Shown: positions 6,381 through 56,574, counted from the first letter of the stretch. The stretch is DNA of 64,000 nt from Anthoceros angustus (GCA_010909165.1 VJWM01000126.1:186001-250000), one strand, 5' to 3'. Made by a program: numbers and translations. Notes: generated by a model not told the origin, from the letters alone.

Positions 6381-6538
6381 CGTGCTCCTGCACCTGTGAC
6401 CGTTACAGTGGCTTGCTGATGATCAAACCTTAGTAAAGCACGCGCACTGTCAAATGGCTTTGCTTGGTGGTTCCAAGCTTCTGTCCATCACGCCTCCTGC
6501 TGCTGGAGGTGTTCATCTTGTATCCTTAGGCTCGGGCC

Positions 6539-9500: not shown

Positions 9501-9874
9501 CATCGGAGGACCACTACACGTGCATGATTGATCTCCTTGGTCGTGCAGGACAACTGGATGAAGCACTGGCGTTAGCAATGACAATGCCTTTACTGCCTAA
9601 TGCTGCAGTTTGGCACACTCTGTTGGGTTCCTGCCGAAAGTGGAGCAACGTGGAGGTGGGGCATCATGCTTTCCATGAAGCAGTGACGCTCGACAAGAAA
9701 GATGCTGCAGCATACGTGATGATGTCGAACATATACATCGGTGCCCACATGTGGGAGCAGGCACAAAAGATGCAGGGTAGGCGGAAACGAATCAGGGCAT
9801 GGAAGCAGCCAGGTCAGAGCTGGTGGACAGACAAGGACGGAATGGTGCATAGCTTTTTAGTTGGGGATGTATGA
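6539..9874 (+). CDS. PLS-class pentatricopeptide repeat protein with E1/E2 and a truncated WW-type DYW N-terminus (organellar RNA-editing factor)
   Basis: 1111-codon ORF of P-L-S triplets, P2-L2-S2 (HYTCMIDLLGRAG), E1 (VWHTLLGSCR), E2, then PGQSWWTD...VHSFLVGD and stop. The true start is probably ATG 6454 (transit-peptide-like MALLGGSKLLSITPP, different frame), joined by an unresolved intron or frameshift. Confidence 0.95.
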   Translation: MLLRAMTVGSGAIQSSKWQKGPCWGQSSWPQQSGGLAGMGDPACLISRNLPLTLNQVETCITFGMKVAALDMDVDMEMGPYRSLPDDPGRSGYDMGVTAETVTRLCLEGRLTESVAALEVLVNTSRCISKSLFYTVLKKCVVKKDLVLGSRIHAFTVRKGYQSDTFLGFHILRMYASHGRLQDAMDVFDVVANPDAFTWSAIIYAHVKHGQDKQAIELYHRMRGSGVKPDGHVFVAALQACARGSDLKTGQQVHADVLASGVEPDLFISNCLLTMYAKCGSLDDAQRVFDGLGEKDVVTWTAMVAGYSQHGMGQEALRLYSGMEEEGIAVPNSVTFMCLLQACASVGKPALEKGRELHAQINERGYQTDVFVANSLVNMYAKCGSLEDAKRVFDGLGQKNVVTWTAMIAGYSQQGMGQEALLVFCGMEEEGIIVPDAVTFVCLLQACASVGSLALEKGKHLHAQIVEQGHHCDVFVANSLVTMYAKCGSLGDAQSVFDGLGQKDVVTWSAMIAGYSQQGMGQEALRLYSRMQEEGIAVTDSVTFVCLLQACASVGTVALEAGKQLHKHIIGHGHGADVFVASSLVNMYAKCGSLEDAQSVFDGLGHKNVVTWTAMIAAYSQHGMGQEALRLHTVMQEDGLAVPNSVTFVCLLQACASVGTMALAKGKQLHMHIREKGLQADVFVASSLIHMYAKCGSLEDAQKLFDELVEKNEVTWTAMIAGYSQQGMGQEALRLYGAMHKGGMTVPNCVTFVCLLQACANVGTPALETGKHIHAQIREQGHQADVYVANSLVNMYAKCGSLEDARNVFDGLGHKDVVTWTAMIAGYSQQGMGQEALRIYGAMQDEGLAVPNSVTFVCLLQACATVAALNVGRQLHAQIVEQGLQADVSVAGSLINMYGKSGSMVDAQQVFDALPEKDIVAWNALIASYTCHGDSELVFESVYRMSEDGIPPDGITFLSVLTVCSHAGVVNKGRQYFKSMSKQYGITPSEDHYTCMIDLLGRAGQLDEALALAMTMPLLPNAAVWHTLLGSCRKWSNVEVGHHAFHEAVTLDKKDAAAYVMMSNIYIGAHMWEQAQKMQGRRKRIRAWKQPGQSWWTDKDGMVHSFLVGDV

Positions 9875-9886
9875 GAAGCACCACCA

Positions 9887-10351
9887 GATGCAGGTAGGTG
9901 GACCGATGTAGACGGGATTGAAACACAGAGAAGGGCAGCAGGAGCTAACAAGAAACCTGGGGTGATGACTGTTGAGGTGGACAAGCAGGTACATCGATTT
10001 CTGGTGGGAAAAAGGAGAGAGGATGTTGCGCTTAAGGAAGAGACCACGAATGCACGTGTGAAGCAGGAAGGAGGTCACGTACCTCACACAAAGTTGGTGA
10101 AGCCTGTGTGTGAGAAGGAAAAGGAAGATGTGCTTTGTGGGCATGCTGAGAAGCTAGCTCCAGCGATTGGTCTGTTGAACACTCCAAGCAGTATACCTCT
10201 GGTGGTAACGAAGAATCTACGCATGTGCAGTGACTGCCACAATTTCACAGAGATTATGTCAAGGCTTGAACAGAGAGACATTGTTGTACGGGATGGGTAC
10301 CGTGTGCATCGACTTGCAGATGGTTGTTGCAGTTTGAAGGGTCGACCATGA
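9887..10351 (+). CDS. Detached E2 tail plus DYW:KP (GRP-type) deaminase-like module, in frame with the upstream PPR ORF
   Basis: DAGRWTDVDGIETQRRAAGANKKPG..EVDKQVHRFLVG..KPVCEK..CGHAEKLA..KNLRMCSDCH..DGCCSLKGRP*. Same frame as 6539-9874 and separated from it by a single TGA (9872-9874). Confidence 0.85.
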   Translation, partial: DAGRWTDVDGIETQRRAAGANKKPGVMTVEVDKQVHRFLVGKRREDVALKEETTNARVKQEGGHVPHTKLVKPVCEKEKEDVLCGHAEKLAPAIGLLNTPSSIPLVVTKNLRMCSDCHNFTEIMSRLEQRDIVVRDGYRVHRLADGCCSLKGRP

Positions 10352-11986: not shown

Positions 11987-14702
11987 TCAATTCCGGTCCC
12001 CACATGAGCAAAAGCCATCCACGAAATGATGCACTCGGTGTGCATCTCGCACAATTACATCTCGCCGTTCAATCCTCGACATGATCTTGGTGCCACTGTG
12101 ACAAGCATTGCACATCCGCAGATTCTTTGTTACCAGCAATGTTGTGCCATCTGGAGTGTTTAGGAGACCATAGGCCAACGCTAGTTTCTCAGCATGTCCA
12201 CACAACGCATCCTCCTCCCCTGCGTCAGGCACTGGCTTCAGCACTAAGCTTGACTGCGAAAACTGGTCTCCTTTCCTTGATAATTGATGATTCGCATTCC
12301 TCAACTTGGAATGGATGTCATCCCTTTCTTCCCCTACAACGAACATGTGAACCTTGTTGTCTACCTCGATCCAGGACCTTGCAGCTTTCTTACACGCGCC
12401 TGCAGACTTTCTCAGATTTTCTATCCTGTCCACATCCCTCCACCTACCGGCTTTAGCATAGATATTTGCCAAGAGTGCATAAGGAGCAGCATCCTGAGGC
12501 TCTACTTTGATGAGATGGTCAAAACATCGCCTTCCACGCTCCATATCACCATGGGTGTTGCAGGCGCTCAGCAAGGATTTCCATCCTGCAGTGTCTTTGT
12601 TGGATGGCAAAGTTCGCAGCATAATTTCTGCTTCTGCTAGACGGCCTGACCGCCCAAGAAGATCGGCCATGCAGTTATAATGATGTGTTCTTGGTGTTAT
12701 GGCATGGTCCTTCTCCATCATCTTAAAAAACTGCTCACCTTCAGTCACCAGGCCCTCGTGACTGCATGCTAACAGAAGACACAGAAAAGTTGCGTCATCC
12801 GGCACAACCATTTGGTGCAGCATCTCCTGGAAACACTGTATTGCCTTTCGTCCCTGATCATGCTGGGCATATCCATGCAGCAGGGCATTCCATGTGCACA
12901 CATTTCTTGTGGCCAGTCTGTCCAACACTGTGCGAGCGTCGTCAAGACTGCCACACTTTGCGTACATGTCTACTAGGCTGCAGCTAACAACAGGATCATC
13001 TTCTAACCCTCTTGCCTGTATTTGACAGTGAAGCAGCTTTCCCTGATGTAAGGCTCCAATGCTGGTACAAGCTTTCAGAAGACAAGCAAATGTGGCACGA
13101 TTAGCAGGAGTACTAGCCTCTTCTTGCATTCTAGCATAGAGACTAAGAGCCTCTTGACCGAGCCCACGCTGAGCGTATCCGGCCATCAAGGCAGTCCATG
13201 TCACGACATCTTTAGCAGGCAGTCTGTCAAATACTCTGCAGGCATCGTCCAAGCTCTCACACTTCACATACATGTCCACCAGACTGTTTCCTACAGCCAA
13301 ATCATTTTGCAGTCCTGTTTCCTGAATCAGAAGATGAAGCTTCCTGCCCTCGTGCAGAGCTCCAACACTGGCACATGCCTTGAGGAGGCTCGAAAACGTA
13401 AAATTGTCTGCATGACTAATGCCTTCCCGTTGCATACTTTTATAGAGCGAGAGGGCTTGCTGACCAAGCCCACGCTGAGAGTATCCTGTGATCATAGTAT
13501 TCCACGTCACCACATTTTTTCCCACTAATCTGTCAAAGACTCGGCGAGCAGCCTCTAAGCTACCACATTTTAAGTACATGTCCACCAGGCTGGTGCCAAC
13601 ATACGTATCAGTTTCAAGTCCTCTTCTGCAAATCTCAGAATGAAGCTGCTGCCCTTGATGCAAATCTTCAACAGTTGCACATGCATTGAGAAGAATCACA
13701 AAAGACGATTCATGAATCATGCCCCCTTTTTGCCCAGCTGCAAAAAGGGCAAGGGCCTCTTGGCCCAACCCATGTTGAGCATATCCTCCTAACATGGCAC
13801 TCCAAGTGACAGCATTTTTTGTTGTTAGCCCGTCAAACACTCTGCGGGCATCCTGTAAGCTGCCACATTTTGCATACATGTCCACAAGGCTGCTTCCAAC
13901 AAACACGTTAATCTCAGCACCACTCCTATGAATGTCAGCATGAACCTCCCTCCCAGCATCTACATCCGCTGTGCTAGCACAGGCCTTGAGTATCGTGACA
14001 TACATCACCTCGTTCGGCTTCACACCCATCTGCCGCATCTGCTCGTACAGCTTCAAAACCTCTGTGTGCTGCCCATGTTCAGCATGTGCAGCAATTATGA
14101 ATCCCCATAACGAGAGATTTGGTGCATGCACTCCCCTGAAGACCTGCATTGCTTCTTGCAGCATCCCAGTGCAAGCATACATTCGAATCAAGTGGCATGC
14201 TAGGAACGAATTTGACTCGTATCCAATTCTCCGCGTCAGGGCATGAACGCTTCTGCCAGAAGGCAGATCTTTGTGGGCAATGCATGTCTTCAAAACATAA
14301 TACAAGACAGACACGGGTAAGCAGAATTGCTGAGAGACCAGCTGCTCCAAAGCGTCCACGGCTTCACTGAGCCGTCCTTCATTACAAAGATGGTAACAGT
14401 TCTGAATCTCCAACTTGCTAGACCTGTTGTTGTCCCAGATGGCCTCCCGTGCCCATGGCTCCACTGCAAGCCAAGTAAACATGCGAGTTTGAGCTTCGCA
14501 GGTACAGGGCACACAAAGACAGGTCAAGGGCACGGCACTCACGAAATCTGCGTTGCTCTGCTGTAGTCTGCACCGATGAGCGATGTCTCCACCATTGCTC
14601 CACAGGCTCCAACTGACTTTCCAGAGAGGAAACTTGTCTGCGGAAGCTCCACTTGCTTGCCAGCAACACAAGCTGAGCACCCAAAGCTGAGCCTTTCCTC
14701 AT
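11987..14702 (-). CDS. PLS-class PPR protein with E1/E2 and a complete DYW:KP domain (DRH-like, ends CSCGDRN); candidate U-to-C editing factor
   Basis: Exon 1 14702-14543 (MRKGSALGAQLVLLASKWSFRRQ, targeting-peptide-like), intron 14542-14464 (GTGAGT...TTGCAG, phase 1, frame-restoring), exon 2 14463-11987 with PLS triplets, KKAARSWIEV, LKP, CGHAEKLA and CNACH. Confidence 0.95.
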
Positions 14703-19939: not shown

Positions 19940-21722
19940 ATGTCCCCGAGTTGCTTCAAAGCGTGTTGGCAAGGGTGTCTATCTGCAGGGAATGCAGTCT
20001 TCGATGTGCAAGCATATGTGGAAGGGCTGAAGGACGCAGTGGGGACTTTGTTGGGCCCAGAGATCAAGGCGGTGCATGGGCAGGCCACATGCGTGCTGGT
20101 CCACAAGTCTCTGGTGCTGACGTCCTGGACCTTTCTTCCTGAAGCTACATGTGCGTTCGGTGCAGAGGTTATCTTCAGGTTCAAGGACAATGTTGTCAAA
20201 CGCAAATTGGAGCCCAGGAGGTGAGGATAGGTAGCCTTGTGTTCTTCTCTTCTGTTGGAGATGGGCATCTGGTGTATGTCTTGAGGTGTTGTAGGGTTGA
20301 TGTGCAGGTTCTTTGCAACCAGCTATGAACTGGACTTGGCACTGGTATGCTGCGAAGAGGTGACGGGAGATATCATTCCCATGAATATGGACACGAACAA
20401 AGCAACTGGTTCTTCCTATCATAAGGGGCACAAAGTGTACATTCTTGGTCATCCGAGAAGCGATCAGCAAGACGTACCTGTATCTGTTGGGCGAGGCCTG
20501 GTTACTGGAGCTTCTGATCAACACGTTATCAAGTTCGCTATGTCAGAGAAGATGTTCTGGGTGCCAGGTTCAGCTGGATTTGACTCGTGGGGCAATTTCG
20601 CGTTTCTGGTATGCACACCTCATGAATGGCTTCCCAAGGGTTCCAAGGCGAAGAAGAAAAGATTCTCTCTCATGCCGCTTCGTCGGAGGAGTAAGTTGAG
20701 GCAGACAGGACTTACCATCCACACTGTGAAGGAGTGGATGGAGAAACTTACTTTGTCAACTCTTCAGGATGAGGATGCAGCCAAAACTCTCACAGGTCTT
20801 CCTGAGGTGATGGCGCAGCCGGATTTGCAACCCCTCAAAGAACTCGTACAAGCCCACAAACTGGCAGCAGCTTTGAAGCAGCAACAGGCTACTCAGGCAG
20901 CCGGTGAGAGAGTCTTTAGCAGAGTTGCCAGCAGGGCAGCAAGTAAGGCACCAAGCAGAGCAGCGAGCAGGCCAGCAAGCCGACCTGCTAGCCGACCTGC
21001 CAGCCGACCTGCCAGCCGACCTTCAAGCAGACCGACCAGCAGGCCTGCCAGCCCAAGGCATGTAAGCACTAGAGTGATGACCCCTCCCACTCCGAAGAAG
21101 AAAGTGGTAGCTATTAGTACAAACAGCGGCGGCGGTTCAAAAAAGAGGATTAGTATTTCTCTCAAACATGGAGAGAAGGGTCCCAACGGTATGGCAATAT
21201 CTTATGACCAAGGCTTTCCCGGTAGAGGGGAAATCCGTGATCCTGTGAGTGTGGTATACATGCTTGATAAAGCCTTGGGCACCTCTTCTCCAACCGCCTC
21301 CAGACCTACGACAGGCACTTCCAGTTCGACAACACCTAAAGCTAAAACCAGGAAGAAGAAGGCCCAAAACTCGAGTAAAAATGTACGTACCCCTCATTCG
21401 CTTCCAGTACCTGCCTCACTCAATAGTCTGTCACTACGATTCTTACTCGTGTGGATTCAAATCGAAACAATTGTTGTTTGTTGCCAACAAACACCAAACA
21501 ACGTGTCAGCAGGCAAAGACCTCCTTAAAGAGAAAGAAGGACGACTCGCATCCTTCAACAGCCGAAAAGGAAAACGGGAAAGTGAAATCTTCTAGCAACA
21601 GGCTCTCGAAGGACGACTCAGCTCCTTCAACACCACAAAAGAAGAACAGGAAAGTGATATCGTCTAATAACAGGCTCTTGAAGCATACGTCTTCTAGCAA
21701 AAGGCGGTCTGTTACTGTGTAG
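19940..21722 (+). CDS. Plant trypsin-like-fold protein (probably non-catalytic) with a Ser/Arg/Pro/Lys-rich C-terminal tail, about 3 exons
   Basis: CVLVHKSLVLT..LEPRR/FFATSYELDLALV..VYILGHP..WVPGSAGFDSWGNFAFLVC resembles an uncharacterised plant trypsin-like family. Intron at 20221-20307, SRPA repeats at ~20926-21052, probable last intron ~21383-21512. Upstream exons are possible. Confidence 0.65.
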
Positions 21723-42110: not shown

Positions 42111-42448
42111 CTCTTATTATTTTATATTATTTTATTATTTTATATTATTCTATATTATTTAATCATTTACTAATAATATTAAACTAATCACCAGACCTAA
42201 GGTCAAACCTTCCCAACCCTATGGTCTGGTACCGGACCTAAACTTCCCAGGTCTGGGACCAAACCTATACCCACTCTTACAACCAAACCAACTATTTTCT
42301 GGTCAATTAACCTAATTAGCACAAAGAAAAATAGGAAAAATGACCAAAAAAATAAAGAAAAATTAGGGAACAGAAGTAGAAAAAGAAAACCAAACCATAC
42401 CCATATTAACCCTTTTTCAACCAAAACAAACTACTACCCCAAACTTTG

Positions 42449-42766
42449 GAGGTTCACAATGCGGATGCACCATGTGGCAATCTTTTCTTCCTCTTCCATG
42501 CTAAAAACAGTGCCTCCTTTTTTGTTGCTCTTCACTTTGCCATGCTTCCAATTCCACAATGTGCTTTTGCTTATGTTGAAAGCTACCTCAGCCTCTCTAA
42601 GAGTCATACCATCCTCTATGGCAATGAGGGCATGCTGCAAACGCTGTTTCCAATCTTGGGGGATACTCCTTGCTGTCCTTGGGAGCCTCACTTTCCAGTT
42701 TGGCAACCCTGCTTGGAGAGCTGCTGTGCTCACTCGCTGTTTTGCTGACACTTTTACTCTGGCCAT
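42449..42766 (-). pseudogene. N-terminal pipsqueak-type HTH of a pogo/Tc5-like transposase, truncated
   Basis: LQHALIAIEDGMTLREAEVAFNISKSTLWNWKHG..KG..VFSMEEEEKIATWC matches the HTH_psq-linker-CENPB/Tc5 helix-1 pattern. No DDE domain follows. Confidence 0.75.
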
Positions 42767-44249
42767 GGTTTTTGACTGGGAGCAGAACGAAAGCAAGGAG
42801 CAAGAGCTTTTAGTTCATAAAGGAGCTTTTAGTTCATAAAAGAGCAGTCTGAATGACAACATGCAGGTGAAACTGTGCTTACTGAGCAATGCCTCTCTCT
42901 TGGAGTGTTCTTCACGTGCACGTGTCCTCCTTCTCAACACTGTGTCAAGCCTTGGAGGAGGTTGTGGATCTTCATTCACTGCTAATCGTGTTCCTTGCTG
43001 CCCACGTTTGGAAAATTGCTGATGTAAACAGCAATCTGCAGGATAGAGAAAAGGACGAGGGCAAGAAGTGCAACTTGCTGCGGTGGCAGCACAAGCTTCT
43101 GCAAACAATTGAGAGTCCTCTATGAATTTATGCTGACAGCAACAGTGAAAAGATGAGAAGAATGGCCCGTGCTCCTTCTTTGTGCAAGTGATGCAACCAC
43201 AGTGGTGACAACCACGTTTTCTTTTGTGCATCGTTTGCTTGCACATGAAGAATGAGCACTGAAGTGCAGGGCTTTGCAGGAGATCTGGCTTTGGATGACT
43301 TTGGCTAGGGCTGTATGGTTTTGGAGGTCTGGAAGCCACTTTGGCGGGATTGTTAGGCGGTAATTGAGGCTGGAACTTGAATTTGAGCATGGAACATTGA
43401 TTATGATATAAATCCAGAACTGCAGGTCACGGTGTCACACCAGAGCCACATTCTGTAAAGAAGAAGCCATAATTCAGTGGCTTAAATCTCACTTTTCTAT
43501 CAATCTTGGATTCTGTGAGAAGATTTTCAGCAGAAGCTTAAATGTTCTGGCAGAATTCTATGCATACTCTATCTGCAGAATCCAGATCTACTTTAAAATA
43601 CTCTGATCCATAATGGGAAGACCTAGAAAATGCGAAAGAAACGCTTCATTTTTTATCAAGACGTTTCGTCTGTCCCATTACACCGCCACCAGGCAGAAAT
43701 TCTGTCCCAGGCTTGTCCCAAATCGGGTCTCGTACTCTATGTCATGCTTACTGGGCTCCTAATTTCTGGGCTCTATACAACATGACGGATAAAGTGCTGG
43801 GTATTGCATTTCGTAAACTGGGATTTCATGTGCACAGCGCAACGGCAGGCTTGACAGGCGGTTTGGTTGGCGATTTCTCAGCTTATGCTCTACTACCACA
43901 GGTTCTCTTCATCCTTGGTTCTACATGTCGATTCATAACTTGTCTGTAGCAACCTGCTTCAGGCTACGCAGCTAAGGTGCCAACATTCTGTGCAAGTCAC
44001 TCCAGCCATGACCATGAGCCTGGTTCTTCTGGCAATGCTGCCTTGCCTAAACAGGATTTGGAGGGATCCTGTCGAAACAGAAGTTGGTAGGTGGATAACC
44101 TATGCTATAGCTGTGGATTCATACTCAGCTGGCATGTGCATGAAAAGGCGTCCATTCACATAGTTATACCTCACAGCCATCAGGTCCGCCAGACATTACA
44201 TAAACTTCTACAGAGCATCGTACCTCTTCAAAAAAACTCCTCTACAGTA

Positions 44250-44458
44250 GAGAGCCCGCAGTCACTTAACACAGTCAGATTACATAGCAGAATGAGTTCT
44301 ACTGAAGAGCCCGCAATCACTTACACAGTCAGATTACATAGCAGGATGAGTTCTACTGAAGAGCCCGCAATCACTTACACAGTCAGATTACATAGCAGGA
44401 TGAGTTCTACTGAAGAGCCCGCAATCACTTACACAGTCAGATTACATAGCAGGATGAG
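44250..44458. repeat. 54-bp tandem repeat (~4 copies) overlapping the stop codon of the minus-strand gene
   Basis: CAGATTACATAGCAGGATGAGTTCTACTGAAGAGCCCGCAATCACTTACACAGT repeated. Confidence 0.95.
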
Positions 44459-45920
44459 ATGTAAAACTCATCCTGGTTCCATCCATGTCCAGTTTTCCCA
44501 GAGCAAGAAGGGTGCGTCCAATGAGGACATACTTCCCTTTGTAAAAGTTTGCACTCTGGTGGACAGAGAACCCTTGAAATTCGATGTCTAGTTTAGCTTT
44601 CCATATCTTGGTTTTACCTTCTTCTTCTCCATCTCCCTCACCAGTGCAATACATCAAACGAGGAGTTGCACCTAGTCCTAAGGGATCATTCTTCAGGGTC
44701 TCGAGAAGGTCATTGAACAAGCCTACGGGCAAACTCAAGCAGCTCGCTCCGGAGTCTACGACTCCATCCTCCACGCTAAACCACAGGCATAGATCTTCCT
44801 TCCGTCCGAACTGAACAGGAAGTCTACCTACAGAACTCGACTTCTCAAGGTCTACAAGCACAAAACCTTCATCTGTTACCTCACTCTCCTTGCCATAACA
44901 GAAGTACAATCCATGTGGACCCATTTGAGGAATGTCGTCCCAGTTGTTTGTACCCGTAGGTACTATCTTTCCATCATTACCTTTCGAAGCAAAACAAAGC
45001 AAATCAGGAACATCATAAGAAGCAAAACAAAGCAAATCAGGAACATCATAAGAGTAAGAAAAGTAAATAAAACAAACTGAATCTTATATACCTGAGAAGA
45101 TATATTGTCCCACATACGACTGAGGAAGGGCCTGTCGTTTACTAATGTAGTTGGTGATGCCAGGGAGAAGCGGTAACCCAGTTTCTTCGGCATCTTTTCT
45201 AACTTCCTCCAGAAACTTAAGATTCGCATACTCCAGTTGTTCGGGTGTCACAGTTTTTGGGGCGTGGAAAACATAGTTTAGAGGCCTCCACTCAGTTTCT
45301 TTCAGTACCGACTTCCCATCTTCATCAGTAACGTGAAGTTCAAAATAATGGATCAAACCAGCATCTATCTCGTGCAGTTTGGTGCTGAATGAAAGCAAAC
45401 AGATGTTAGTATCATAAAAGCCCGTATCCTAGTAATCATGTACAAGAAATACAAAACATAAGTTACCTTGTTACTGTCTTATCTGCGGTTTGAAAAAGCT
45501 TGAACTTCTGTCGGAGCTTGGTATAACAGAACACTTGCAGGTCCTTCATGTGTGAAAATGGAGTCCACTCGATGGTCAAAGTATTTCTTATTCCAGAAAC
45601 CTGTAAGCAAGTATCAAGATACCTTTCAGACCTTCATCCACCTGAAACCATCATAACCTGAAGAAGACCATAATCTCACTCACCTTAAAAACTTGTTCTG
45701 AGGATTCCATCCCACCTGTCCTCCTCACTCTACGAGGAAGTGGACGAGCAAGGGCTTGAGTGCTCTTCACTGACCTCTGCAACATATCCAGAAGATCAGA
45801 GCATTTCATGTTTTCACGTATGTGCTCTACAAGCTTCGTCTCTGAGGGGAATAACCGCCTACAGTCTTTGTGAGGGCAAGTAAATCGGTGCCGCTGCACA
45901 TGACTACTACTGGACGCCAT
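44442..45920 (-). CDS. Uncharacterised 400-aa protein: N-terminal C2HC-type zinc finger, possible ubiquitin-like domain, C-terminal retropepsin-like aspartic protease
   Basis: Exons 45920-45684, 45600-45467, 45384-45092 and 44980-44442 with GT-AG introns of 83, 82 and 111 nt give 1203 nt in one open frame. Motifs FTCPHKDCRRLFPSETKLVEHIRENMKC, VVDSGASCLSLP and VLIGRTLL. Confidence 0.78.
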
Positions 45921-46543
45921 CCCGACTAGCAATGAAAGGCATAAACCAAAACAGCTCCAGCAGAAAGCAATCAACAGCAACAGCCAGGAGATGGGCAATC
46001 AGCAATAGCCGAGAGAGAGGGCAGCCAATAACAGCCTGCAGAGCCAAGAGGATTGACCACCGCAGATACAGAGTAACAACAGCCCGCAGAAACACAAGAG
46101 AAGAAGAGAAGAAGAGACAACACAGGAGAGAACGTAAAGACGAAAGAAGAGCACCAAGCAGCGGGCAATAGCCGCTGGCATCAACAAACAGAATCCTGGA
46201 AGGAAGAGATTAGAGGAAACAAAGAGCACATACCTCTTCTTCCAGGTTCTTCCAAGTACGTTGTGGAGCTGAAATTGCAGACACGATTCTTTCTCCTGAC
46301 AGCCTTCGAAGGGAGACGAGAGCCTTCTGATGGAGCGTGAAGATGTGAAGCCACAGCTAGGAGCGTGAACTTGTTCCGCTTGTTAGGCACCTGTACCGCG
46401 TACTCGACGTGATGAAAGATCGAATCTTCGATGCAGTACACCGACTCGGGTTTTATGGTGTAGAGTACGAGACCCGATTCGGGACAGGGAAATTAGAATA
46501 TTTGTATAATATTGAATTCTTCGTAAAATAATATCAGGTTTTA

Positions 46544-47107
46544 AGTAACAAAGCTGGCTTGAGTGCTTTGCAAGAAAGCTCCATGCAGAGGCATGTTTAG
46601 AAGAGCAGCTTACTAAGAGCATGTTAAGCATGCAGCCCTAGGAAGTGTATGGTAGTAAATAATAGCTTAAAGCTTAAGTAAGTAGTTACTAAGATTGTAG
46701 CTAGGGCTTGAGTATAAAGGAGACCTCTAGGCTAAAGACAGTTCTCAACCTTGAGAGCACTTGTTGCTTGGGTTGCGCCTTGAGAGCACTTGATGCTTGG
46801 GCTATGCCTTGAGAGCACTTGTTGCTTGGGCGTAAAGGGAGGCCGTGAAGGAGCTTTGTGGAGGAGGTCAAGTGAGAGAGAGCTAAGCTCCTAGCTTAGG
46901 CAAAGATGGGGAGTTCTCTCTAGCCCTCCACTGTATGTTCTTGTTGACTCGTGATCTAAGAATAAAGAGCGGTGCAAGAGTCTTTGTCTGCGAGTCCTCC
47001 TAGAAGAGGAGGGCGGCTACTTGGAGGCCTAGTCGTGTCCGTGTTGATTTATTACCCTAGTTTGCTTCTAATCAGTGGTTTTCCCACCCCGCTGAGAGGG
47101 TGTTACT
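46544..47107 (+). repeat. Chromovirus 5' LTR
   Basis: AGTAACA...TGTTACT; contains three CCTTGAGAGCACTTG..GCTTGGG units. Confidence 0.93.
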
Positions 47108-50100
47108 TGTGGTCAGCATAGGTTGAAGCATCTTTGACTAGTACGCTAGTGGAGATGGCGAGATCTGCGAGCCGAGAGTGGAAAGGATGCCCGGAAGATA
47201 AGGCCCGCTTACTGTGGAAGAGCCTGAGTCCGCAAGTTGTGAGAATGGAGGAAGGAACTTGGGCAGGACCCGGCACCATAGAGGACCAGCTCAAAAGATC
47301 ATGAGGAGACTTGATGCCATGGATCGAGATTAAAGGCGGAAGCTCGTTGAAGAAGAGCCAAGAAGTGGAGCTGAGCAGAGGCATCCAAAAGTCTAAGAAG
47401 TTGAGGTGAGCATACAGCCCCAAAGACTTATAAAGGCGAGCGTGACGAGAAAATCAGCCTTGGTTTTCTCTTTGGGCGTACCTCGAATCATGCAGTGCAA
47501 GATGAGTACGTGACGTCACGAATTTCTTAGAGGATTATGCTCTTACTTGGTGGAGGACTTACGTTGAGAACGTAAGGCAAGGCAATCGCAGAGCCACAAT
47601 CTTCACATGGGCAGACTTCAAGCAAGCGCTGCAACTCCGTTTCCAACCCGCTAATGCAGCGAGTTTGGCGCGAAGGATGCTCGACAATGTCAAGCATACT
47701 GGAACTTTGCAGGAGTATGTGAGTGAGTTTAGCTCTATTGTCTTGCAATGTCCAGAGATGCATGAGCAGGACAAACTCCACAAGTTTATCACTGGCCTTA
47801 AGAGATGGGCTCAAAATAGGATAGCTTTGACTAATCCTCAAACACTGCAAGAGGCCATGGCGGCAGATGCTATACCGGATATGTTTATTCAAGAGGCACC
47901 GGTATCAAGAGGAAGATATCCTAGGTCTCGGGGTAGATCTAGAGGAGAGGACGAGCTACCACCACCGTGAATAGTGGAACCAATGAGACTCGGAGGCCGA
48001 GCTAGAGGAGATAACAGGGTCGTGGAAGGCGGCGAAGTGCCTAGCTCGGTGTGTGTGTATGAGAAGGAGGACACTTTGCTAGAATTGTCCACATGTTGGA
48101 GCTCCCAACTTGAATTTGCTGCCAATCCACTGCTCCAAGAGCCGGATTCAAGAACTTCCCGAGGAGCCAGTGGCCGGGCCACATGTTGTGAAGACATGTG
48201 GTGAGTCATCTAGTGTCAAGGATGACACTATAATGAGGAAAGGTGGAGATCTCATGTATATATGTGGGAAGATGAATGGCTTAGATGTAGAGTTGTTGTT
48301 GGATTGCAACCACCCACAATTTTATAACTCCTAGTAAGGCAAGAGAGCTTGGTCTTGAATGGAAAACTTCCACGCCATATGGAATCAAGCAAGCTAAAGG
48401 GACTCGCAATTTGGCGAATTGCATGGAGTAAAGTCAAGTCGAAGCATGGCAAGGAAATGTGAGTTTCACACTCGAGATGGATGACCATGATATCATCTTA
48501 GGCTGGAGTGGATGAGATCCAATGAAGTGTATATGGATGTTAAGTCTCGCACTATTGAGATATCCAAGAAGCACAAGGTGAGTTGTGCTAGTGTTAGCCG
48601 AGCTTGAGACTCCATCAAGACATTTTCAAAAAGAGAGCTTAAGAAGGATCTCGGAAAAGAAGGAGCTATACTTAGTTGTACTCCAAGGACTAGAGGATGG
48701 TCTAGAAGAAGATTCCACAGAGGTGAAAGACATCCCAAAAGAAGTACAAGCTATCTTGGATGAGTTCAAGGATTTGATGCCGATGAGTTGCCACCATTCT
48801 CTCGCAGTAGTAGATCATGAGATTGACTTGAAGCTGGGACGCCTCCTTCAAGAGCACCGTATAGATTGTCAGGATGAGTTGCAAGAACTCAGCGACAACT
48901 ATCCAACTGTTGGCAAAGGGATATGTCGAGTTTCTAAGTCTCCTTTTGTGCTTTGTTCACGCAAAAGAATGGAGGACTCGATTGTGTGGATTACGAGCTC
49001 AATCGATTACAATCAAGAATGCATATCCTTTGCCTAGAATGGATGATATGTTGACAGTTGAAGGGTGCCAAGTATTTCCAATGGATCGAGATTAAAGGCG
49101 GAAGCTCGTTGAAGAAGAGCCAAGAAGTGGAGCGAGCTCGAGAGCGATCGCCAAAAGTCTAAGAAGTTGAGGTGAGCATACAGCCCCAAAGACTTATAAA
49201 GGCGAGCGTGACGAGAAAATCAGTTCTTGGTTTTCTCTTTGGGCGTACCTCGAATCATGCTGAGTGCCGAAGATGAGTACGTGAAGCTCACGAATTTCTT
49301 AGAGGATTATGCTCTTACTTGGTGGAGGACTTACGTTGAGAACGTAAGGCAAGGCAATCGCAGAGCCACAATCTTCACATGGGCGACTTCAAGCAAGCGC
49401 AACTCCGTTTCCAACCCGCTAATGCATGAGTTTGTAAGGATGCTCGACAATGTCAAGCATACCGGAACTTTGCGGAGTATGTGAGTGAGTTTAGCTCTAT
49501 TGTCTTGCAATGTCCAGAGATGCATGAGCGGGACAAACTCCACAAGTTTATCAACGGCCTTAAGAGATGGGCTCAAAATAGGATAGCTTTGACTAATCCT
49601 CAAACACCGCAAGAGGCCATGGCCGGATATGTTTATTCAAGAGGCACCGGTATCAAGAGGAAGATATCCTAGGTCTCAGGGTAGATCTAGAGGGAGAGGA
49701 CGAGCTACCACCACTGTGAATAGTGGAACCAATGAGACTACTGGCAGAGGCCGAGCTAGAGGAGATAACAGGGTCGTGGAAGGCAAGCGTTCCTAGCTCG
49801 GTGTGTGTGATGGAGACAGGACACTTTGCTAGAATTGTCCACATGTTGGAGCTCCCAACTTGAATTTGGTTGCTGCCAATCCACTGCTCCAAGAGCCGGA
49901 TTCAAGAACTTCCCGAGGAGCCAGTGGCCTGGGGCCACATGTTGTGAAGACATGTGGTGAGTCATCTAGTGTCAAGGATGACACTATAATGAGGAAAGGT
50001 GGAGATCTCATGTATATATGTGGGAAGATGAATGGCTTAGATGTAGAGTTGTTGTTGGATTGCAACCACCCACAATTTTATAACTCCTAGTAAGGCAAGA

Positions 50101-53100
50101 GAGCTTGGTCTTGAATGGAAAACTTCCACGCCATATGGAATCAAGCAAGCTAAAGGGACTCGCAATTTGGTATTGCATGGAGTAAAGTCAAGTTGAAGCA
50201 TGGCAAGGAAATGAGTTTCACAGTCGTCGAGATGGACGACCATGATATCATCTTAGGCCTGGAGTGGATGAGATCCAATGAAGTGTACATGGATGTTAAG
50301 TCTCGCACTATTGAGATATCCAAGAAGCACAAGGTGAGTTGTGCTAGTGTTAGCCAGAAGCTTGAGACTCCATCAGTACAGCTGATTTCAAAAAGAGAGC
50401 TTAAGAAGGATCTCAGGAAAAAGAAGGAGCTATACTTAGTTGTACTCCAAGGACTAGAGGATGGTCTAGAAGAAGATTCCACAGGTGAAAGACATCCCAA
50501 AAGTACAAGCTATCTTGGATGAGTTCAAGGATTTGATGCCGGATGAGTTGCCACCATTGGTCTCGCAGTAGTAGATCATGAGATTGACTTGAAGCCGAGT
50601 ACGCCTCCTTCAAGAGCACCGTATAGATTGTCACGATGAGTTGCAAGAACTCAGCGACAACTATCCAACCTGCTGGCAAAGGGATATGTCGAGTTTCTAA
50701 GTCTCCTTTTTGCGCTGTTGTTCACGCAAAAGAATGGAGGACTCGGTTGTGTCCGGATTACGAGCTCAATCGATTACAATCAAGAATGCATATCCTTTGC
50801 CTAGAATGGATGATATGTTGACAGTTGAAGGGTGCCAAGTATTTCACCAAGCGGATCGATGGCGGGGTACTATCGGATCGTGATTGCGAGGGCATGAGTA
50901 CAAAAGCGACTTGTAGGACCGTGTATGGGGCTTTTGAATTTGGTCATGCCATTTGGACTTACTAATGCACTGCCACATTTCACACTTATGAATACTATAT
51001 TCATAGATCCGTGGACAAGTGTGTTGTAATCTATCCGGATGACATTTTGATCTTTAGCCATACCTTGAGGAACATCGAACACTTAAGAGAAGTGTTACAA
51101 AAGCTAAGAGAGAATTCTTTGTTCTTGGCAATCAAGAAGTGTGATTGTCAAGACAGATTCCATTCTTAGGTTTTATTGTCTCGCCGAGGGCATCGGATGG
51201 ATCCCGATAAAGTTAAAGCCATTCAAGATTGGCGCCTCGGAACATTCATGAGGTAAGCTTTATGGGTTTGGCTTACGTGTGAGGTTTGTACATATGTTTG
51301 CTAAGATAGCAATAACGACCTCTTGAAGACATCAAAAGCTTGGAAGTGGGATCTGATTGTCAGCGCCTTTGAATACTTGAAAGAGAAGTTGAGTACTACT
51401 CCTGTTGGGAATGTATGACCCCAAGAAAGATGTAGAAGTGTATTGTGATGCCTCGGACATGGCTATAGGTGGAGTTTTGATGCGGGACCAAAAGCCGTTA
51501 GCTTTTGAGTCAAGGAAGTTGCATCCTTATGAGATGAAGTATCCCACCTATGAGAAGGAAATGACCGCCATCCACTCTAAAGGCTTGGAGGCACTATCTC
51601 TTGGGTAGGTCTTTTGTCTTGTCATAATATCAAGATAACATACTTCTCCAACCAATTGAAGTTGAATGCGAGGCAAGCTAGATGGCGTGATTCCTAGCTA
51701 TGTATGATGTGACTCAAATACAAACCGGAAAGGAGAATAAGGTTGCGATGCGTTGAGTCGCAAATGAGTCAAGGATCAAGGCAATGGCAAGTGTGATTGA
51801 GCCTGTGGATACTCACAAAGAGATTAAGGAAGCTTATCGCAAGATCCAAGTGCGGGATCGGATGAATGGGGTGGCGAGAAGGAAGCAAGTTCAAACTCGA
51901 GATGGTTTGTTGATATACAAGCGAGAGAGTTGTGATTCCTAACTCAGGCTTGAAGAAGAAGTTACTTCAATGTCATGATGTGCCAAGTCACTGTAGGTGA
52001 TTCAACTTATGAGAAGTTGAAGAAGTCGTTTATCAGGAATGTATCAAGATACATTAGACTATGTCAAGGCATGTCTTTTGTTTGTCAGGATAAGGTAGAA
52101 GGCTAAACCAAGAGGTTTGTTCACTACCTATTCCAAGAGGGCCATGGAAAAGTATTTCTATGGACTTCATCATGCCTTTGCCTCCCGAATGGTTATACAC
52201 TATCATGACATGGTGGATAGGTTCACCAGCAAGCGCACTTCATCCCCACCAAGAAGCGGTGTGGCGCTTAGGGCAACTTGTTCAAGAAGTATGTGTACAA
52301 GTATCATGGCTTGCCCGCACATTGTGAGTGATAGAGATCCAAGATTCACGGAGAATTTTGGCAGCACTTGATGAGAAGTTTGAATGTGCGCTTATGCATG
52401 AGTACCGCATACCATCCAGAATCGATGGGCTAACAGGCGAGTCAACCGAATCCAAGAAGAATACTTGAGGCACTATGTGCGATTGATCGAGAGATTGGGT
52501 GATCATCTTGATGATGCGGAGTTTTGTTACAATAACCATACATAGCTCCTTGGGATATAGTCCCTTTGAGATGAGTGGAAACTTGGATGTTATCCATGCT
52601 AAATGCTGAAGTTTTCGATACTACCAGAGATCCACGCCAATTTGTTGAGCGTTGAAGGCTAGGCATGAGATTGCCAAAAGATATTAGCCAAGGCTCAAGC
52701 ACGTCAAGAGATATGATAAGCAGGAGAAACTCTTCAATGTTGGGGATAAGGTTTGGGTGAAATTGAAGCATTTCACACCGCCCAAGGTTTGTCTCTAAAG
52801 TTGAGGCCAAAGTATGGAGGTCCTTATGTTGTCCTGCGCATTGGAGAAGTCGCTTATAAGTTGGACTTACTGCTCGGATTTTTGCACACAATGTGTTTCA
52901 TGTATCAGCTGAAGCCATTTGTGCCAGGCAAGGAAAATGAGGACATGGACAGGAAGAAGTACTGTATCCTCGTGCAGCATGATCAAGGACTGCAGGAGAT
53001 TGAAGAATTCCTTGCAAAAGGTACCCTGGCCACGAGACGTGGAACTCTACCACAATGCATGGTGAAGTTGCGTGGGATCTCAATACCAGTTTGGGTAACA

Positions 53101-53178
53101 CTAGAGGATATCCGTAAAGGCTCGGATGATTGCTCGTTACGGTTATCACCGAGGCGTGATTCTTCCTAGTGGGGAGGA

Positions 53179-53734
53179 AGTAACAAAGGCTTGAGTGCTT
53201 TGCAGAAAGCTCCATGCGAGGCATGTTTAGAAGAGCAGCTTACTAAGAGCATGTTAAGCATGCAGCCCTAGGAAGTGTGGTAGTAAATAATAGCTTAAAG
53301 CTTAAGTAAGTAGTTACTAAGATTGTAGCTAGGGCTTGAGTATAAAGGAGACCTCTCAGGCTAAAGATTCAGTTCAACCTTGAGAGCACTTGCTTGGGTT
53401 GCGCCTTGAGAGCACTTGATGCTTGGGCTATGCCTTGAGAGCACTTGTTGCTTGGGCAGCACGGAAGGGAGTCTTGTGAAGGAGCTTTGTGGAGGAGGTC
53501 AAGTGAAGAGAGCTAAGCTCCTAGCTTAGGCAAAGATGGGGAGTTCTCTCTAGCCCTCCATCTGTATGTTCTTGTTGACTCGTGATCTAAGAATAAAGAA
53601 GCAAGAGTCTTGCGAGTCCTCCTAGAAGAGGAGGCGGGCTACTTGGAGGCCTAGTGCTGTGTCTGGTGTTGATTTATTACCCTAGTTTGCTTCTAACTGC
53701 GTGGTTTTCCCCACCCCGTTGAGAGGGTGTTACT
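53179..53734 (+). repeat. Chromovirus 3' LTR
   Basis: AGTAACA...TGTTACT, directly after the PPT. Confidence 0.93.
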
Positions 53735-54133
53735 TTTTAGATATAAGTAGATATGATAATAGATAATAGAAGTATAAAATTAGAACTTAAAATTCTAAAC
53801 TAATGATAAAGAAACGTTGAAAGAAGCGTTTGGACCCGATTCGGGACACGGCCGGCAAATGAACGGAACATCTGGTACTCTGGACAAGACAAACCGCTCT
53901 CATGCTGGTACATCAAGCTGCTCAAAGTGAACATCAAGCTGCTCAAAGTGAACACCCTCCTCCAAAAAATGTCCAGAGTAACATGCGGCTTGAACGCACC
54001 CTTGGCTATGGCGGGACACATGCTCATTACCTGAACATCGAGTTGCTGGAGAGCCACCCTCCTGTTGAGATGAACCAACAAGAATACAAAACCCTAGTGA
54101 AAACTCAACATCCTCTTCACTTCGAACCCGATT

Positions 54134-54403: not shown

Positions 54404-56574
54404 TGTGGTGACCACATGGGTACTCAGACCCCCTCGGAAAGGAGTGTTTTTTTTTGTTTTGTGTTTAAGTGGGGTGAAGTTGGAGTGAAAGTATGAAGTT
54501 AGGAAATAAAGAAAAGTCTACTAGAGCCTAGTAGGAGGAAGAGAGTCTAGTCCCGATCCCGGACAGTAACCCCTGAGGGTTGGTCAGCCGACCTATTAAC
54601 GCTGCGGCCGCTTGCTATACTGTGGCCTCTGCTATGACCACAACCGACGGAGCCTGTTGCTATGGTAGCAACCAAGTTGGAGTTTCTTTTCGATGACTTC
54701 GAAAATCCAATCGATGGAATCACAAGGAATACCAAACGGGAAGTAACGGGGTCCTATTGGCAATTAAGTCCAAGCATGGAAGAGTATTTGACCAATCCGG
54801 GATCAAGACGCGCCGCCTGCCGAAGAGCGATCTGTGGGTGGAGGCCGGAGTAACGCTTGACGGATGCAAGGCGAGGTGTCGCAATGATCGTGAAGCCGCC
54901 AGCCGCGAACGAGCGCTGGCCAGCAGGAGACCAAACTGGCGGCAGGGATTGAGAGGGGCCGTGGAGGAAGAGAGTCTAGCGCAAACCGGAGGAGGCACTC
55001 AGGCTGTGGCGGCGGGGAATGAAGGTTCTGTGGAGCAACGCCCGGAAGGGGCGTGGGGGCAATGGAGGTGGGGAACATGGCCTGCGCGTCAGAATCGGAT
55101 CCCACCTATGGGCAGGGAGTACGACCCATCCAGGATTCAAGAGCTCACCGAGGAGAAGGCTAGGCGAGCACAAGAGAGGGAAGAGTCCAGCTGAGGAAGT
55201 GGAGATTTTGTGAGAGATTGCCCAACCAGCCAAGAGGAGAGAGCAAGAGGAGAACATGGCCTAGGCGGCCTAGGAGGCCTGTGAGGGATAATAGGGGTAA
55301 GTGGCCTCAAATAGATGAAGGCCCATGTGTTATAGATCGATCTTCCTCATAGTGGATAGAATTAAGAGATAGGCCTCTAGGACCGTAGGCTAAGACCGAT
55401 TGGTATTTTGGCAAGCAGCCAAGCTACTTTTGTGGGCTGATCTTGGGTATAAGAGGCAGCCCTCTTGATGAAATGCAAGCAATGTTGGCCTAAAGTCTGG
55501 TGTTTAATGAGCACGGGGTTTGGGGGTACCTGAAAAGGCCGTGAGTCTAGGCACGCTTCCGCTGTGAGGAGCCGAGAAGACTACCAAGTTGCCGATCCGT
55601 GTGACCGATCCGCAAGAGTGGTGGAAAGCAAGGGAGGGAACTGTGGTCTCCTTGGGGAGTTCCCAAGGATAAGAGGAAGGGGTTGTGAAGCCGGGAGGCT
55701 GTCCATTCCCTTACTCATTCCCTTCAGCTTGTCTAGTACTCACCTTGTGTTTGAGTTTTTCAGGGTGTCGGAGGTCATGTGGGAAAAGGAGACAAGGCGG
55801 GGAGTCTGTGTGGGTGGAAGAGAAGGCTGAAGTGAGACGGAACCTGTGGGTTTGTATGCTTGGAAAATGTGAGCGAAAAGTGAACTGTGAGAGGAGTGGG
55901 AAATGCTGGACATGGAGAGTTGCTGATTGGCTGTGGAGAGAAGTAAGAGGGATTGGAGAAGACTGTAAGTGATGTTTGCTGAGAAAGTGGAGATTGAATG
56001 AGGCCGTGAGGTGTGAGAACAAGGAGCGCGGAAGGGGGTTGCAGAGGAAACTTGGGGAGTATGGAGAGGCAAGAGGTACCTGGGGGGAGCCTGGGAGGAC
56101 TGGAGGAAGCTTGGGGAGGAAACAAAGGTTGAGGGAAGAAAGAGATCCGGGGAAGGCACAGAGTAAGGAGGTATGTGATCGAACGATTGGTGGATCCGAC
56201 TTTGTGGAAGGATAAGAGAGGGTGTCCAATCTTACCCACTTGGACCCCAAGTGGGCCCCCACCTTCTATTAATAGCCGCTGAACCCGAGATGGGCCCCCT
56301 GCTAAAATAGAGGGTGGTTGCTAAGATAGCAACTGGTCTGCTGCTAAGGTAGCAATAGGTCGCGTGGCTAAGATAGCTACAGTCCGAGTGTTGTTAGGAT
56401 AGTAGCGGTCTCAGAATCGCTAGATGTTTTGTATGTCCGTGTTTGGTTGGATTGGCTATGTTTTGGTTGTCTTGACACGAAATCACTCCCTTGGGTACGA
56501 ATCTCAAGTCTACAACGATAAAGAGGGTAAATGTGGCCTCTTTGTGACCACTTGGTTTAGAAAATCACTCCACA
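54404..56574 (+). repeat. Gypsy 5' LTR (2171 bp)
   Basis: Colinear with 62397-64000 and followed by the PBS. Confidence 0.92.

What the first reader, a model, noticed from the sequence alone, without database searches (positions are those of the whole stretch)
44442..45920. Intact intron-containing gene encoding zinc finger + ubiquitin-like(?) + single-domain retropepsin protease, hidden in a TE nest
Seen: four exons that the ORF track shows only as fragments splice through canonical GT-AG introns into a stop-free 400-aa frame, while every neighbouring TE is full of frameshifts. Exon 1 has C-x4-C-x12-H-x6-C. Exon 4 has hydrophobic-DSGAS plus a downstream LIGRTLL. Established: those two motifs are the hallmarks of homodimeric clan AA retropepsins. 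Inference: the exon 2-3 segment (TLTIEWTPFSHMKDLQVFCYTKL...KLHEIDAGLIHYFELHV) has the strand-helix-strand spacing of a beta-grasp fold. That would parallel Ddi1 (UBL + retroviral protease), yet the sequence does not resemble Ddi1 (no FVDSGAQ/LLGLDML) and there is no gag or RT context. It is a candidate for an undescribed domesticated or captured protease family.
Basis: partly seen in the sequence, partly recalled or inferred. Interest (0 to 1): 0.78.

Follow-up and report, generated by a model that had tools for sequence, protein, structure and literature searches.

The report
Orphan hornwort single-lobe aspartic protease gene

Summary
The gene is real. The four minus-strand exons give a stop-free 400-aa frame, and contigs of one public run show all three introns as exact GT-AG joints. 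That mRNA's first AUG is 45710, giving 330 aa; it is likely the main form. Residues 262-400 are likely one clan-AA (retropepsin-type) lobe: a profile of 111 prokaryotic lobes aligns colinearly at 11.6 bits, reached by 0 of 2000 shuffles and 1 of 300 shuffles that keep both motifs. Activity is untested. No homolog was found among 1.84 billion representatives, but this organism's proteins seem missing from the collection. Ubiquitin likeness scored no better than shuffles (weak test). The 'intact among broken TEs' argument is weak, because the neighbouring TE frameshifts look like assembly error. A 26-bp inverted repeat brackets the gene together with an ALG6/8 gene fragment. Verdict: a likely new eukaryotic single-domain clan-AA protease of unresolved origin, not a Ddi1. 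Interest 0.5.

The parts
46234..46426 (-). The 5' end is where a contig stops, not a mapped start site
   Evidence: contig piece 46234-46426, 0 differences, depth 149.5; ATG scan
45777..46233 (-).
   Evidence: joint 45776 to 46234, ends GT..AG, short side 28 letters
45801..45884 (-). C2H2-like zinc-finger coding stretch (F13 to C40; last His replaced); usable only in a minor or ancestral 400-aa form
   Evidence: Pfam zf-C2H2 E 0.024, under cut-off; strict core in 1 of 200 shuffles; contig 45749-46084 at depth 5.5
45684..45776 (-). Spliced part of exon 1; holds the first AUG of the spliced mRNA at 45710 (G at -3 and +4), start of the 330-aa product
45601..45683 (-). 83-nt GT-AG intron, phase 0
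45467..45600 (-). Exon 2; part of an N-terminal region of unknown fold (beta-grasp proposed, not supported)
45385..45466 (-). 82-nt GT-AG intron, phase 2
45092..45384 (-). Exon 3; N-terminal/middle region of unknown fold
   Evidence: no family; Atlas lead only, HUH-relaxase-like features 0.86-0.89 at low recognition
44981..45091 (-). 111-nt GT-AG intron, phase 1, with a 33-bp duplication
44442..44980 (-). Exon 4 coding part, to the TAA stop
44445..44861 (-). Likely single clan-AA aspartic protease lobe (aa 262-400); catalytic Asp codon 44756-44754, Gly of L-I-G-R at 44519-44517
   Evidence: seeded model
44251..44458 (.). 54-bp tandem repeat, 3.8 copies, repeating the last codons, the stop and the start of the 3' UTR
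   Evidence: covered by contigs
43737..44178 (+). Fragment of an ALG6/ALG8 glucosyltransferase gene, tail to tail with the protease gene, about 92% alike to an expressed relative
   Evidence: Pfam PF03155 E 1.3e-12 and 1.2e-5; contig with 25 differences in 347 letters
43714..43739 (+). Left arm of a 26-bp inverted repeat (1 mismatch) that brackets the ALG fragment and the protease gene
   Evidence: 0 of 100 shuffles
46461..46486 (-). Right arm of the 26-bp inverted repeat, 35 bp upstream of the furthest 5' contig end

Best explanation
A transcribed, spliced nuclear gene of what is likely a hornwort, whose likely main mRNA encodes a 330-aa protein, predicted to be soluble, with about 190 N-terminal residues of unknown fold and one C-terminal lobe that is likely a clan-AA (retropepsin-type) aspartic protease. 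Mechanism (inferred from the family, untested): two chains pair, each gives its one D-S-G-A aspartate to a shared active site, the Ser makes the 'fireman's grip', and the strands after the G-R helix form a Ddi1/ASPRV1-like C-terminal sheet. The enzyme would cut proteins in the cytosol or nucleus. The N-terminal part would act as a recruiting or pro-domain and may be cut off by self-processing, as in ASPRV1. A non-coding upstream exon splices into the middle of the old first coding exon and so removes a C2H2-like finger; a minor 400-aa form with the finger may exist. The gene is likely lineage-restricted. Whether the lobe came from a retroelement or from a prokaryote is unresolved.
For: Shown: splicing of all introns, with no differing letters listed over the gene. 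The run behaves as RNA: four GT-AG joints, and zero cover over the Ty3 interior 47213-49217. The first AUG of the spliced mRNA gives 330 aa. There is one D[ST]G only and no hydrophobic leader or membrane stretch (Kyte-Doolittle 19-residue maximum 1.03; 0.25 at the N-terminus). Protease lobe: a profile of 111 prokaryotic clan-AA lobes aligns from the Asp to the end at 11.6 bits; 0 of 2000 full shuffles and 3 of 2000 DSG-kept shuffles reach it; hhalign 75%. With both motifs kept, 1 of 300 reach it, and 8 of 8 random half-profiles beat all 300 full shuffles. Among 1,636 six-frame pieces of the window this frame ranks second (10.0 bits), after a Ty3 protease (17.8); the third scores 3.7. Atlas: the ten best hits with a family share an aspartic-protease family or clan, top score 0.85, a lead only. 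Motifs match D-T/S-G-A and the G-R-N/D helix described in PMC7072860 (passages). An AlphaFold model seeded with 85 prokaryotic lobes reaches pLDDT 68, pTM 0.62 and matches Ddi1 and retroviral proteases (Z 8.3, rmsd 3.3, 104 aligned); this shows compatibility only. Hornwort: a PPR-DYW tail in the window ends in GRP, a hornwort variant per PMC9478123 (passages).
Against: Profile support is remote. A first, narrower profile of 30 lobes gave nothing (-1.5 bits), and the 46-sequence subset gave 1.6 bits with 97 of 300 motif-kept shuffles reaching it. Pfam, NCBIfam, PHROGs and PDB sequence searches found no protease family. The unseeded model failed (pLDDT 34) and matched nothing; the seeded one is circular. 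Expression rests on contigs of one run of one study. Contig depth cannot rank isoforms, and the 457-nt joint has a 28-letter short side. No ortholog was found, so there is no evidence of selection. No activity data.
Confidence: 0.62

Rival explanations
1. One reading: a Ddi1 analogue in which one or two beta-grasp (ubiquitin-like or PB1-like) domains, with an N-terminal zinc finger in the long form, bring the protease to ubiquitin-pathway substrates.
For: By eye the strand-strand-helix-strand hydrophobic pattern of aa 71-145 fits a beta-grasp, and aa 200-255 has a second loose likeness (inference from recalled fold patterns, no call). The finger core is unlikely by chance. Ddi1 structures top the seeded fold search, tied with retroviral proteases.
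Against: Against five ubiquitin-like domains, aa 71-150 and aa 155-258 scored no better than shuffles (1656 and 1065 of 2000 shuffles at least as high; best pairwise z 0.72 and 1.18). No ubiquitin-clan hit for exon 2 or 3 in Pfam, PDB or the Atlas. The finger is absent from the likely main mRNA. The helix is G-R-T-L-L, not Ddi's G-L-D-M-L, and no UBA follows. These tests are weak for remote folds, and the N-terminal part could not be folded whole.
Confidence: 0.3
2. The gene is cargo of a non-autonomous, Pack-type DNA transposon of 2.77 kb (43714-46486) that also captured an ALG6/8 fragment. Transcription starts just inside the right terminal repeat, and this new start with its new splice is what removed the zinc finger. 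It need not serve the host. This can hold together with the best explanation as to the fold.
For: 26-bp inverted repeat with 1 mismatch. The ALG fragment begins at 43737, at the inner end of the left arm. The furthest 5' contig end is 35 bp inside the right arm. The same 16-bp terminus recurs at 53848 and, diverged, at 54565, each with a different outer flank, so it is a repeated element end.
Against: No target-site duplication at these ends; only a 5-bp match with shifted ends. The repeat is far shorter than GingerRoot's 100-150 bp. No second expressed copy at 80% or more in run X1 (depth over exon 4 unchanged). Four spliced introns and an intact frame are more than a fragment. With several such ends nearby, two independent insertions could face each other. 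No genome was held to count copies.
Confidence: 0.3
3. A transcribed but functionless or catalytically dead chimera: exon-shuffled pieces (finger, unknown segments, a protease relic) that happen to stay in frame.
For: No homolog anywhere searched. TE-rich setting, a truncated ALG gene beside it, a tandem repeat across the stop codon and an orphaned finger. The intact-versus-broken argument is weak.
Against: 330 codons open across three coding introns, all spliced; an AUG-free leader with a good start context; every catalytic-motif residue present. The lack of homologs is expected if hornwort proteomes are missing from the collection (0 of 10 window ORFs found).
Confidence: 0.2
4. Exon 4 is not an aspartic protease at all; the two motifs are chance.
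For: No curated family hit; unseeded fold failed; the first profile failed.
Against: The profile score survives shuffles that keep both motifs (1 of 300), and all 8 half-profiles beat all 300 full shuffles. The Atlas points to the same clan independently. The frame ranks next to a real Ty3 protease among 1,636 pieces.
Confidence: 0.1

Closest known systems
Ddi1/Ddi2 (eukaryotic single-domain non-viral clan-AA peptidase; PMC2642776 and PMC7072860, passages read)
   Same: Host gene of similar length (about 350 aa for Ddi1), D-S-G-A motif, one lobe, C-terminal strands after the consensus helix in the seeded model; best seeded structural hits.
   Different: Helix motif G-R-T-L-L rather than G-L-D-M-L; no Pfam or PDB sequence hit; the lobe is C-terminal with no UBA after it; UBL unsupported; no detectable relatives, whereas Ddi1 is spread over plants, fungi and animals.
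ASPRV1/SASPase (PMC11402058, passages read)
   Same: Lineage-restricted host gene with one D-S-G-A lobe near the C-terminus behind an N-terminal extension; the model for self-processing.
   Different: ASPRV1 is mammalian with a Gag-like region; here the N-terminal region shows no Gag hit, the coding sequence has three introns, and no sequence similarity was detected.
Prokaryotic single-domain clan-AA proteases (TIGR03698 clan_AA_DTGF, PF13650; APRc of Rickettsia, 5c9b)
   Same: They are the source of the only sequence-level support; the 24-sequence TIGR03698-derived subset scored best (12.1 bits, 0 of 300 motif-kept shuffles).
   Different: Identity only 9-21%; no NCBIfam hit; eukaryotic spliced gene with a 190-aa N-terminal part. 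No matching set of eukaryotic retroelement proteases was compared, so this shows no donor.
Retroviral and LTR-retrotransposon proteases (family A2 and kin)
   Same: D-T/S-G-A and a G-R helix motif (G-R-N/D in retroviral enzymes); seeded fold matches XMRV, RSV and EIAV proteases at Z 7.7-8.0.
   Different: No gag, RT or integrase in frame; outside the neighbouring LTR pair; introns; no similarity to the window's own Ty3 or Ty1 proteases.
Pack-TYPE transposons and GingerRoot (PMC6839031, passages read; PMC6379663, search listing only)
   Same: TG...CA-ended inverted repeat around a captured host-gene fragment.
   Different: 26-bp rather than 100-150-bp repeats, no 6-bp target duplication, and an intact multi-exon expressed gene inside.

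Membership tests
Clan AA single-lobe (retropepsin-type) aspartic protease | D-T/S-G-A active-site motif after hydrophobic residues | tested here: met
   V-V-D297-S-G-A; feature from PMC7072860
Clan AA single-lobe (retropepsin-type) aspartic protease | One catalytic motif per chain (not bilobed like pepsin) | tested here: met
   one D[ST]G in 400 aa
Clan AA single-lobe (retropepsin-type) aspartic protease | Hydrophobic-hydrophobic-Gly followed by the consensus helix (ILG; G-R-N/D) | tested here: met
   L-I-G376-R-T, 79 residues after the Asp; Gly aligns with the near-invariant column; Thr stands where retroviral enzymes have N/D
Clan AA single-lobe (retropepsin-type) aspartic protease | Colinear similarity over the lobe, beyond the two motifs | tested here: met
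   11.6 bits; 0 of 2000 full shuffles, 1 of 300 both-motifs-kept shuffles; one narrower profile failed
Clan AA single-lobe (retropepsin-type) aspartic protease | Retropepsin fold in an unbiased model | tested here: inconclusive
   unseeded pLDDT 34; seeded model fits but is circular
Clan AA single-lobe (retropepsin-type) aspartic protease | Obligate homodimer | tested here: inconclusive
   see Tried and rejected
Clan AA single-lobe (retropepsin-type) aspartic protease | Asp-dependent proteolysis | not testable with these tools
   needs an assay
Ddi1/Ddi2 | G-L-D-M-L-K/R consensus helix | tested here: not met
   G-R-T-L-L against PMC7072860
Ddi1/Ddi2 | N-terminal ubiquitin-like domain | tested here: inconclusive
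   no better than shuffles against 5 close ubiquitin-like domains; the domain is split over three exons and was not folded
Ddi1/Ddi2 | Central protease domain followed by a UBA domain (as described in PMC2642776) | tested here: not met
   the protein ends with the lobe
LTR-retroelement pol protease | In a gag-pol frame between LTRs, without introns | tested here: not met
   stop follows the lobe; four spliced introns; lies outside the LTR pair 46543-47108/53178-53735
Classical C2H2 zinc finger | F-x-C-x2,4-C-x3-F-x5-L-x2-H core (consensus recalled) | tested here: met
   1 hit in the window, 1 of 200 shuffles; Pfam E 0.024, below cut-off
Classical C2H2 zinc finger | Second His 3-5 residues after the first | tested here: not met
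   no His there; Cys at +7
GingerRoot | 100-150-bp terminal inverted repeats and a 6-bp target duplication | tested here: not met
   26-bp repeat, no duplication at its ends
Pack-TYPE transposon | Terminal inverted repeats around captured host-gene fragments | tested here: met
Pack-TYPE transposon | Target-site duplication and further copies in the genome | tested here: inconclusive
   only a 5-bp match with shifted ends; no genome held

The most novel reading that the evidence does not exclude
A new family of eukaryotic single-lobe aspartic proteases, taken up by hornworts from a prokaryote rather than from a retrotransposon, fused to one or two highly diverged beta-grasp domains into an independently evolved Ddi1 analogue. 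A promoter brought by a transposon end and a 457-nt leader intron switch it between a zinc-finger form and a finger-less form.
Probability: 0.15. Interest if true: 0.78.

Novelty: new variant of a known kind. Interest (0 to 1): 0.5.

Why it matters
Few host-encoded single-domain clan-AA families are described in eukaryotes: PMC2642776 (2009, passages) lists Ddi1, NIX-1 and SASPase, with Ddi1 the one it places in plants. An intron-bearing, expressed gene with such a lobe and no detectable relative would add a plant family and a directly testable enzyme (wild type against Asp-to-Asn). The leader intron that cuts off a real finger-coding stretch is a clear case of a gene's architecture being rewritten beside a transposon end. 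The limits are real: one gene, one RNA run, no ortholog, no activity, and hornwort proteins seem missing from the searched collection, so it may be annotated as a hypothetical protein in a hornwort genome. Literature searches hornwort+retropepsin, Marchantia+retropepsin and Anthoceros+aspartic protease+horizontal gene transfer gave 0 papers. Searches listed 2, 9, 1 and 4 papers, none by title or abstract start about such a gene. The library lacks most subscription papers, and no supplements were read.

Tried and rejected
Homolog searches, all empty: exon 4 against longer proteins (1,386 candidates) and near lengths (115); exon 3 against longer proteins (211); phmmer over 1,835,955,588 representatives (0); metagenome, genome and viral contigs (150, 70 and 12 pattern hits, none confirmed); plasmids and phages (one hit each at E 9 and E 2, chance); Pfam, NCBIfam, PHROGs and PDB sequences. 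The 26-bp repeat had 0 matches in metagenome contigs. Exact look-up: 0 of 10 window ORFs are in the protein collection (start codons guessed), so these blanks say little about hornworts.

Run search: no holder is on record as RNA (X1 is 'RNA?'); X2 laid 0 contigs. The stretch 46096-46199 has no contig cover, which proves nothing alone.

Structure: single-sequence AlphaFold of exon 4 gave pLDDT 34, and its Foldseek and VIA searches were meaningless. The homodimer job for aa 262-400 returned 'no answer' (0.27 and 0.20 against a mark of 0.32; controls not folded) and is no evidence either way. only shows that alignment A1 is a general clan-AA profile (it finds HIV, Ddi1, ASPRV1 and APRc proteases); it says nothing about the query itself.

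Profiles: the first clan-AA profile of 30 lobes failed. The Atlas lead for exon 3 (TrwC/Mob HUH relaxases, 0.86-0.89, recognition 1702) was rejected: under the tool's marks, and no H-hydrophobic-H motif is present.

Rejected: Ddi1 ortholog; protease of the neighbouring Ty3 or Ty1; GingerRoot; secreted or membrane protein. The sigma-70 promoter scan does not apply to a plant. Earlier-findings look-ups by place near, by sequence and by words found nothing on this gene. My first splice test used a start two bases off and was corrected. Not possible: a whole-genome copy count, dN/dS, a tree, and a fold of the spliced N-terminal region.

Full report
Observation. On the minus strand, exons 45920-45684, 45600-45467, 45384-45092 and 44980-44442 join through GT-AG introns of 83, 82 and 111 nt into 400 codons and a stop. 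The introns are AT-richer than the exons (GC 0.30-0.41 against 0.41-0.49). An open frame alone is weak, since 105 of 14,858 GT-AG combinations tried are also stop-free. One public run, X1, holds 0.71 of the sampled words, and its contigs skip all three introns exactly, with no differing letters listed over the gene. The run is only guessed to be RNA, but four GT-AG joints and zero cover over the Ty3 interior at 47213-49217 show spliced transcript. It is one run of one study.

The same run has a fourth joint, 45776 to 46234, skipping 457 nt with GT..AG ends. The short side of the joint is 28 letters, under the tool's 31-letter mark, and contig depth is a poor measure of level. The canonical ends, the donor GTATGT and the step in cover at 45776 support it, and 28 plus 2 ambiguous letters is the overlap expected where a 31-mer assembly graph branches (inference). 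The spliced leader has no ATG and an in-frame stop; the first AUG is 45710, with G at -3 and +4, giving 330 aa that start at residue 71. If the intron were kept, three upstream ATGs would precede the finger's start, one overlapping it out of frame. So the likely main product has no zinc finger. The finger-coding stretch is still likely genuine: the strict C2H2 core occurs once in the window and in 1 of 200 shuffles, whereas the loose spacing occurs 7 times and in 150 of 200 shuffles; Pfam gives zf-C2H2 E 0.024, under cut-off. It is an ancestral or minor first exon.

The protease lobe. No curated library names exon 4. The ESM Atlas returns aspartic-protease clusters at 0.82-0.85, a lead only. 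I built profiles from natural prokaryotic clan-AA lobes. A first profile of 30 gave nothing. A broader one of 111 aligns aa 295-392 colinearly at 11.6 bits; 0 of 2000 full shuffles and 3 of 2000 shuffles that keep the DSG motif reach it, and hhalign gives 75%. With both motifs kept, 1 of 300 reach it. Eight of 8 random half-profiles score 6.8-15.1 bits, above all 300 full shuffles, with 0-6 of 300 motif-kept shuffles reaching them. Of three subsets, the TIGR03698-derived one scores 12.1, the archaeal one 5.3 and the PF13650 one only 1.6. Among 1,636 six-frame pieces of the window this frame ranks second, behind a Ty3 protease and well above the third. The chain has one D[ST]G, and its helix reads G-R-T-L-L, like the retroviral G-R-N/D and unlike Ddi's G-L-D-M-L (PMC7072860, passages). 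AlphaFold without an alignment failed (pLDDT 34). Seeded with 85 prokaryotic lobes it gives pLDDT 68, with two strands after the helix, and matches Ddi1 and retroviral proteases at Z 8.3-7.7; that shows compatibility, not proof. I put the clan-AA fold at about 0.88.

The N-terminal region. By eye aa 71-145, and more loosely aa 200-255, resemble beta-grasp patterns. Against five ubiquitin-like domains neither scored better than shuffles, and Pfam, PDB and the Atlas gave no ubiquitin-clan hit for exon 2 or 3. These are weak tests, and the region spans three exons and could not be folded whole. The Ddi1 parallel is therefore open at about 0.3, not supported.

Relatives and host. No homolog was found in any collection. 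However, 0 of 10 ORFs of this window are in the protein collection by exact look-up, so this organism's proteome seems missing, and the blank mostly excludes recognisable relatives in well-sampled lineages. Run X1 shows no second expressed copy at 80% or more. The window's PPR-DYW tail ending in GRP points to a hornwort (PMC9478123, passages); an earlier AI note on this genome said the same, which is no independent support.

Setting. The gene lies outside the Ty3 element that starts at 46543 and is unlike the window's own Ty3 and Ty1 proteases. A 26-bp inverted repeat (43714-43739, 46461-46486) brackets the gene and an ALG6/8 fragment that starts at the inner end of the left arm and is about 92% alike to an expressed relative. 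The same terminus recurs twice nearby. There is no target duplication at the ends, and GingerRoot's criteria are not met (PMC6839031, passages). A Pack-type unit whose right end supplies the promoter is a live rival (0.3) and would explain the new leader exon.

How it most likely works. Shown: transcription, splicing, the 330-aa frame, the motifs, no leader or membrane stretch. Inferred from the family (PMC7072860, PMC11402058; passages): two chains supply one Asp each, the Ser gives the fireman's grip, C-terminal strands form the dimer sheet, and the N-terminal part recruits substrates or is removed by self-processing as in ASPRV1. Substrate, activity, dimer state and origin are untested.

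Verdict. It works like a retropepsin-type homodimeric protease and meets the sequence features of clan AA; it is not a Ddi1 and not a pol protease. It is a likely new variant among eukaryotic single-domain clan-AA proteins, of which PMC2642776 (passages) lists Ddi1, NIX-1 and SASPase. Searches of the paper library found nothing on such a gene; genome-paper supplements were not seen and may list it as hypothetical. Interest 0.5: real, expressed and testable, but a single orphan whose most striking proposed features (finger and UBL on one chain, domestication) are not supported.

Noticed in passing
window 46543-47108 and 53178-53735: LTR pair of a Ty3/gypsy element whose ends read AAGTAAC...GTTACTT rather than TG...CA, with a purine tract before the 3' copy; 92% alike, mostly by short gaps; an internal block of about 1.76 kb is duplicated (47330-50900).
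   Followed up: partly
window 43714 (+), 46486 (-), 53848 (-), 54565 (-): Four copies of an element end starting TGTCC with different outer flanks; the core holds a short palindrome. Family not identified.
   Followed up: partly
window 9875-10351 (+) and 11987-14698 (-): Two PLS-type PPR genes with DYW-type tails ending in GRP and DRN; GRP and DRH are hornwort variants linked to U-to-C editing (PMC9478123). The first is separated from its PPR tract (6530-9874) by a stop.
   Followed up: partly
window 42434-42992 (-): HTH_psq (pogo-like) coding stretch (Pfam E 1.3e-5) with a spliced 107-nt GT-AG intron in run X1 at low depth; a Cys/His-rich frame lies at 42815-43426.
   Followed up: no
window 43662-43708: A contig of run X1 matches these 47 letters and then runs on with a diverged version of the inverted-repeat arm, so the left arm may belong to a longer repeat found elsewhere.
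   Followed up: no
window 51690-53108: A 4,656-nt contig of a related Ty3 element (depth 526) aligns with 40 substitutions and 34 gaps in 308 letters: an expressed relative exists, and the window copy is indel-rich.
   Followed up: no
window 20285-21595 (+): 436-aa frame with a weak trypsin-like hit (Pfam Trypsin_2 E 0.0099) and RPAS-type repeats.
   Followed up: no
   Followed up: no
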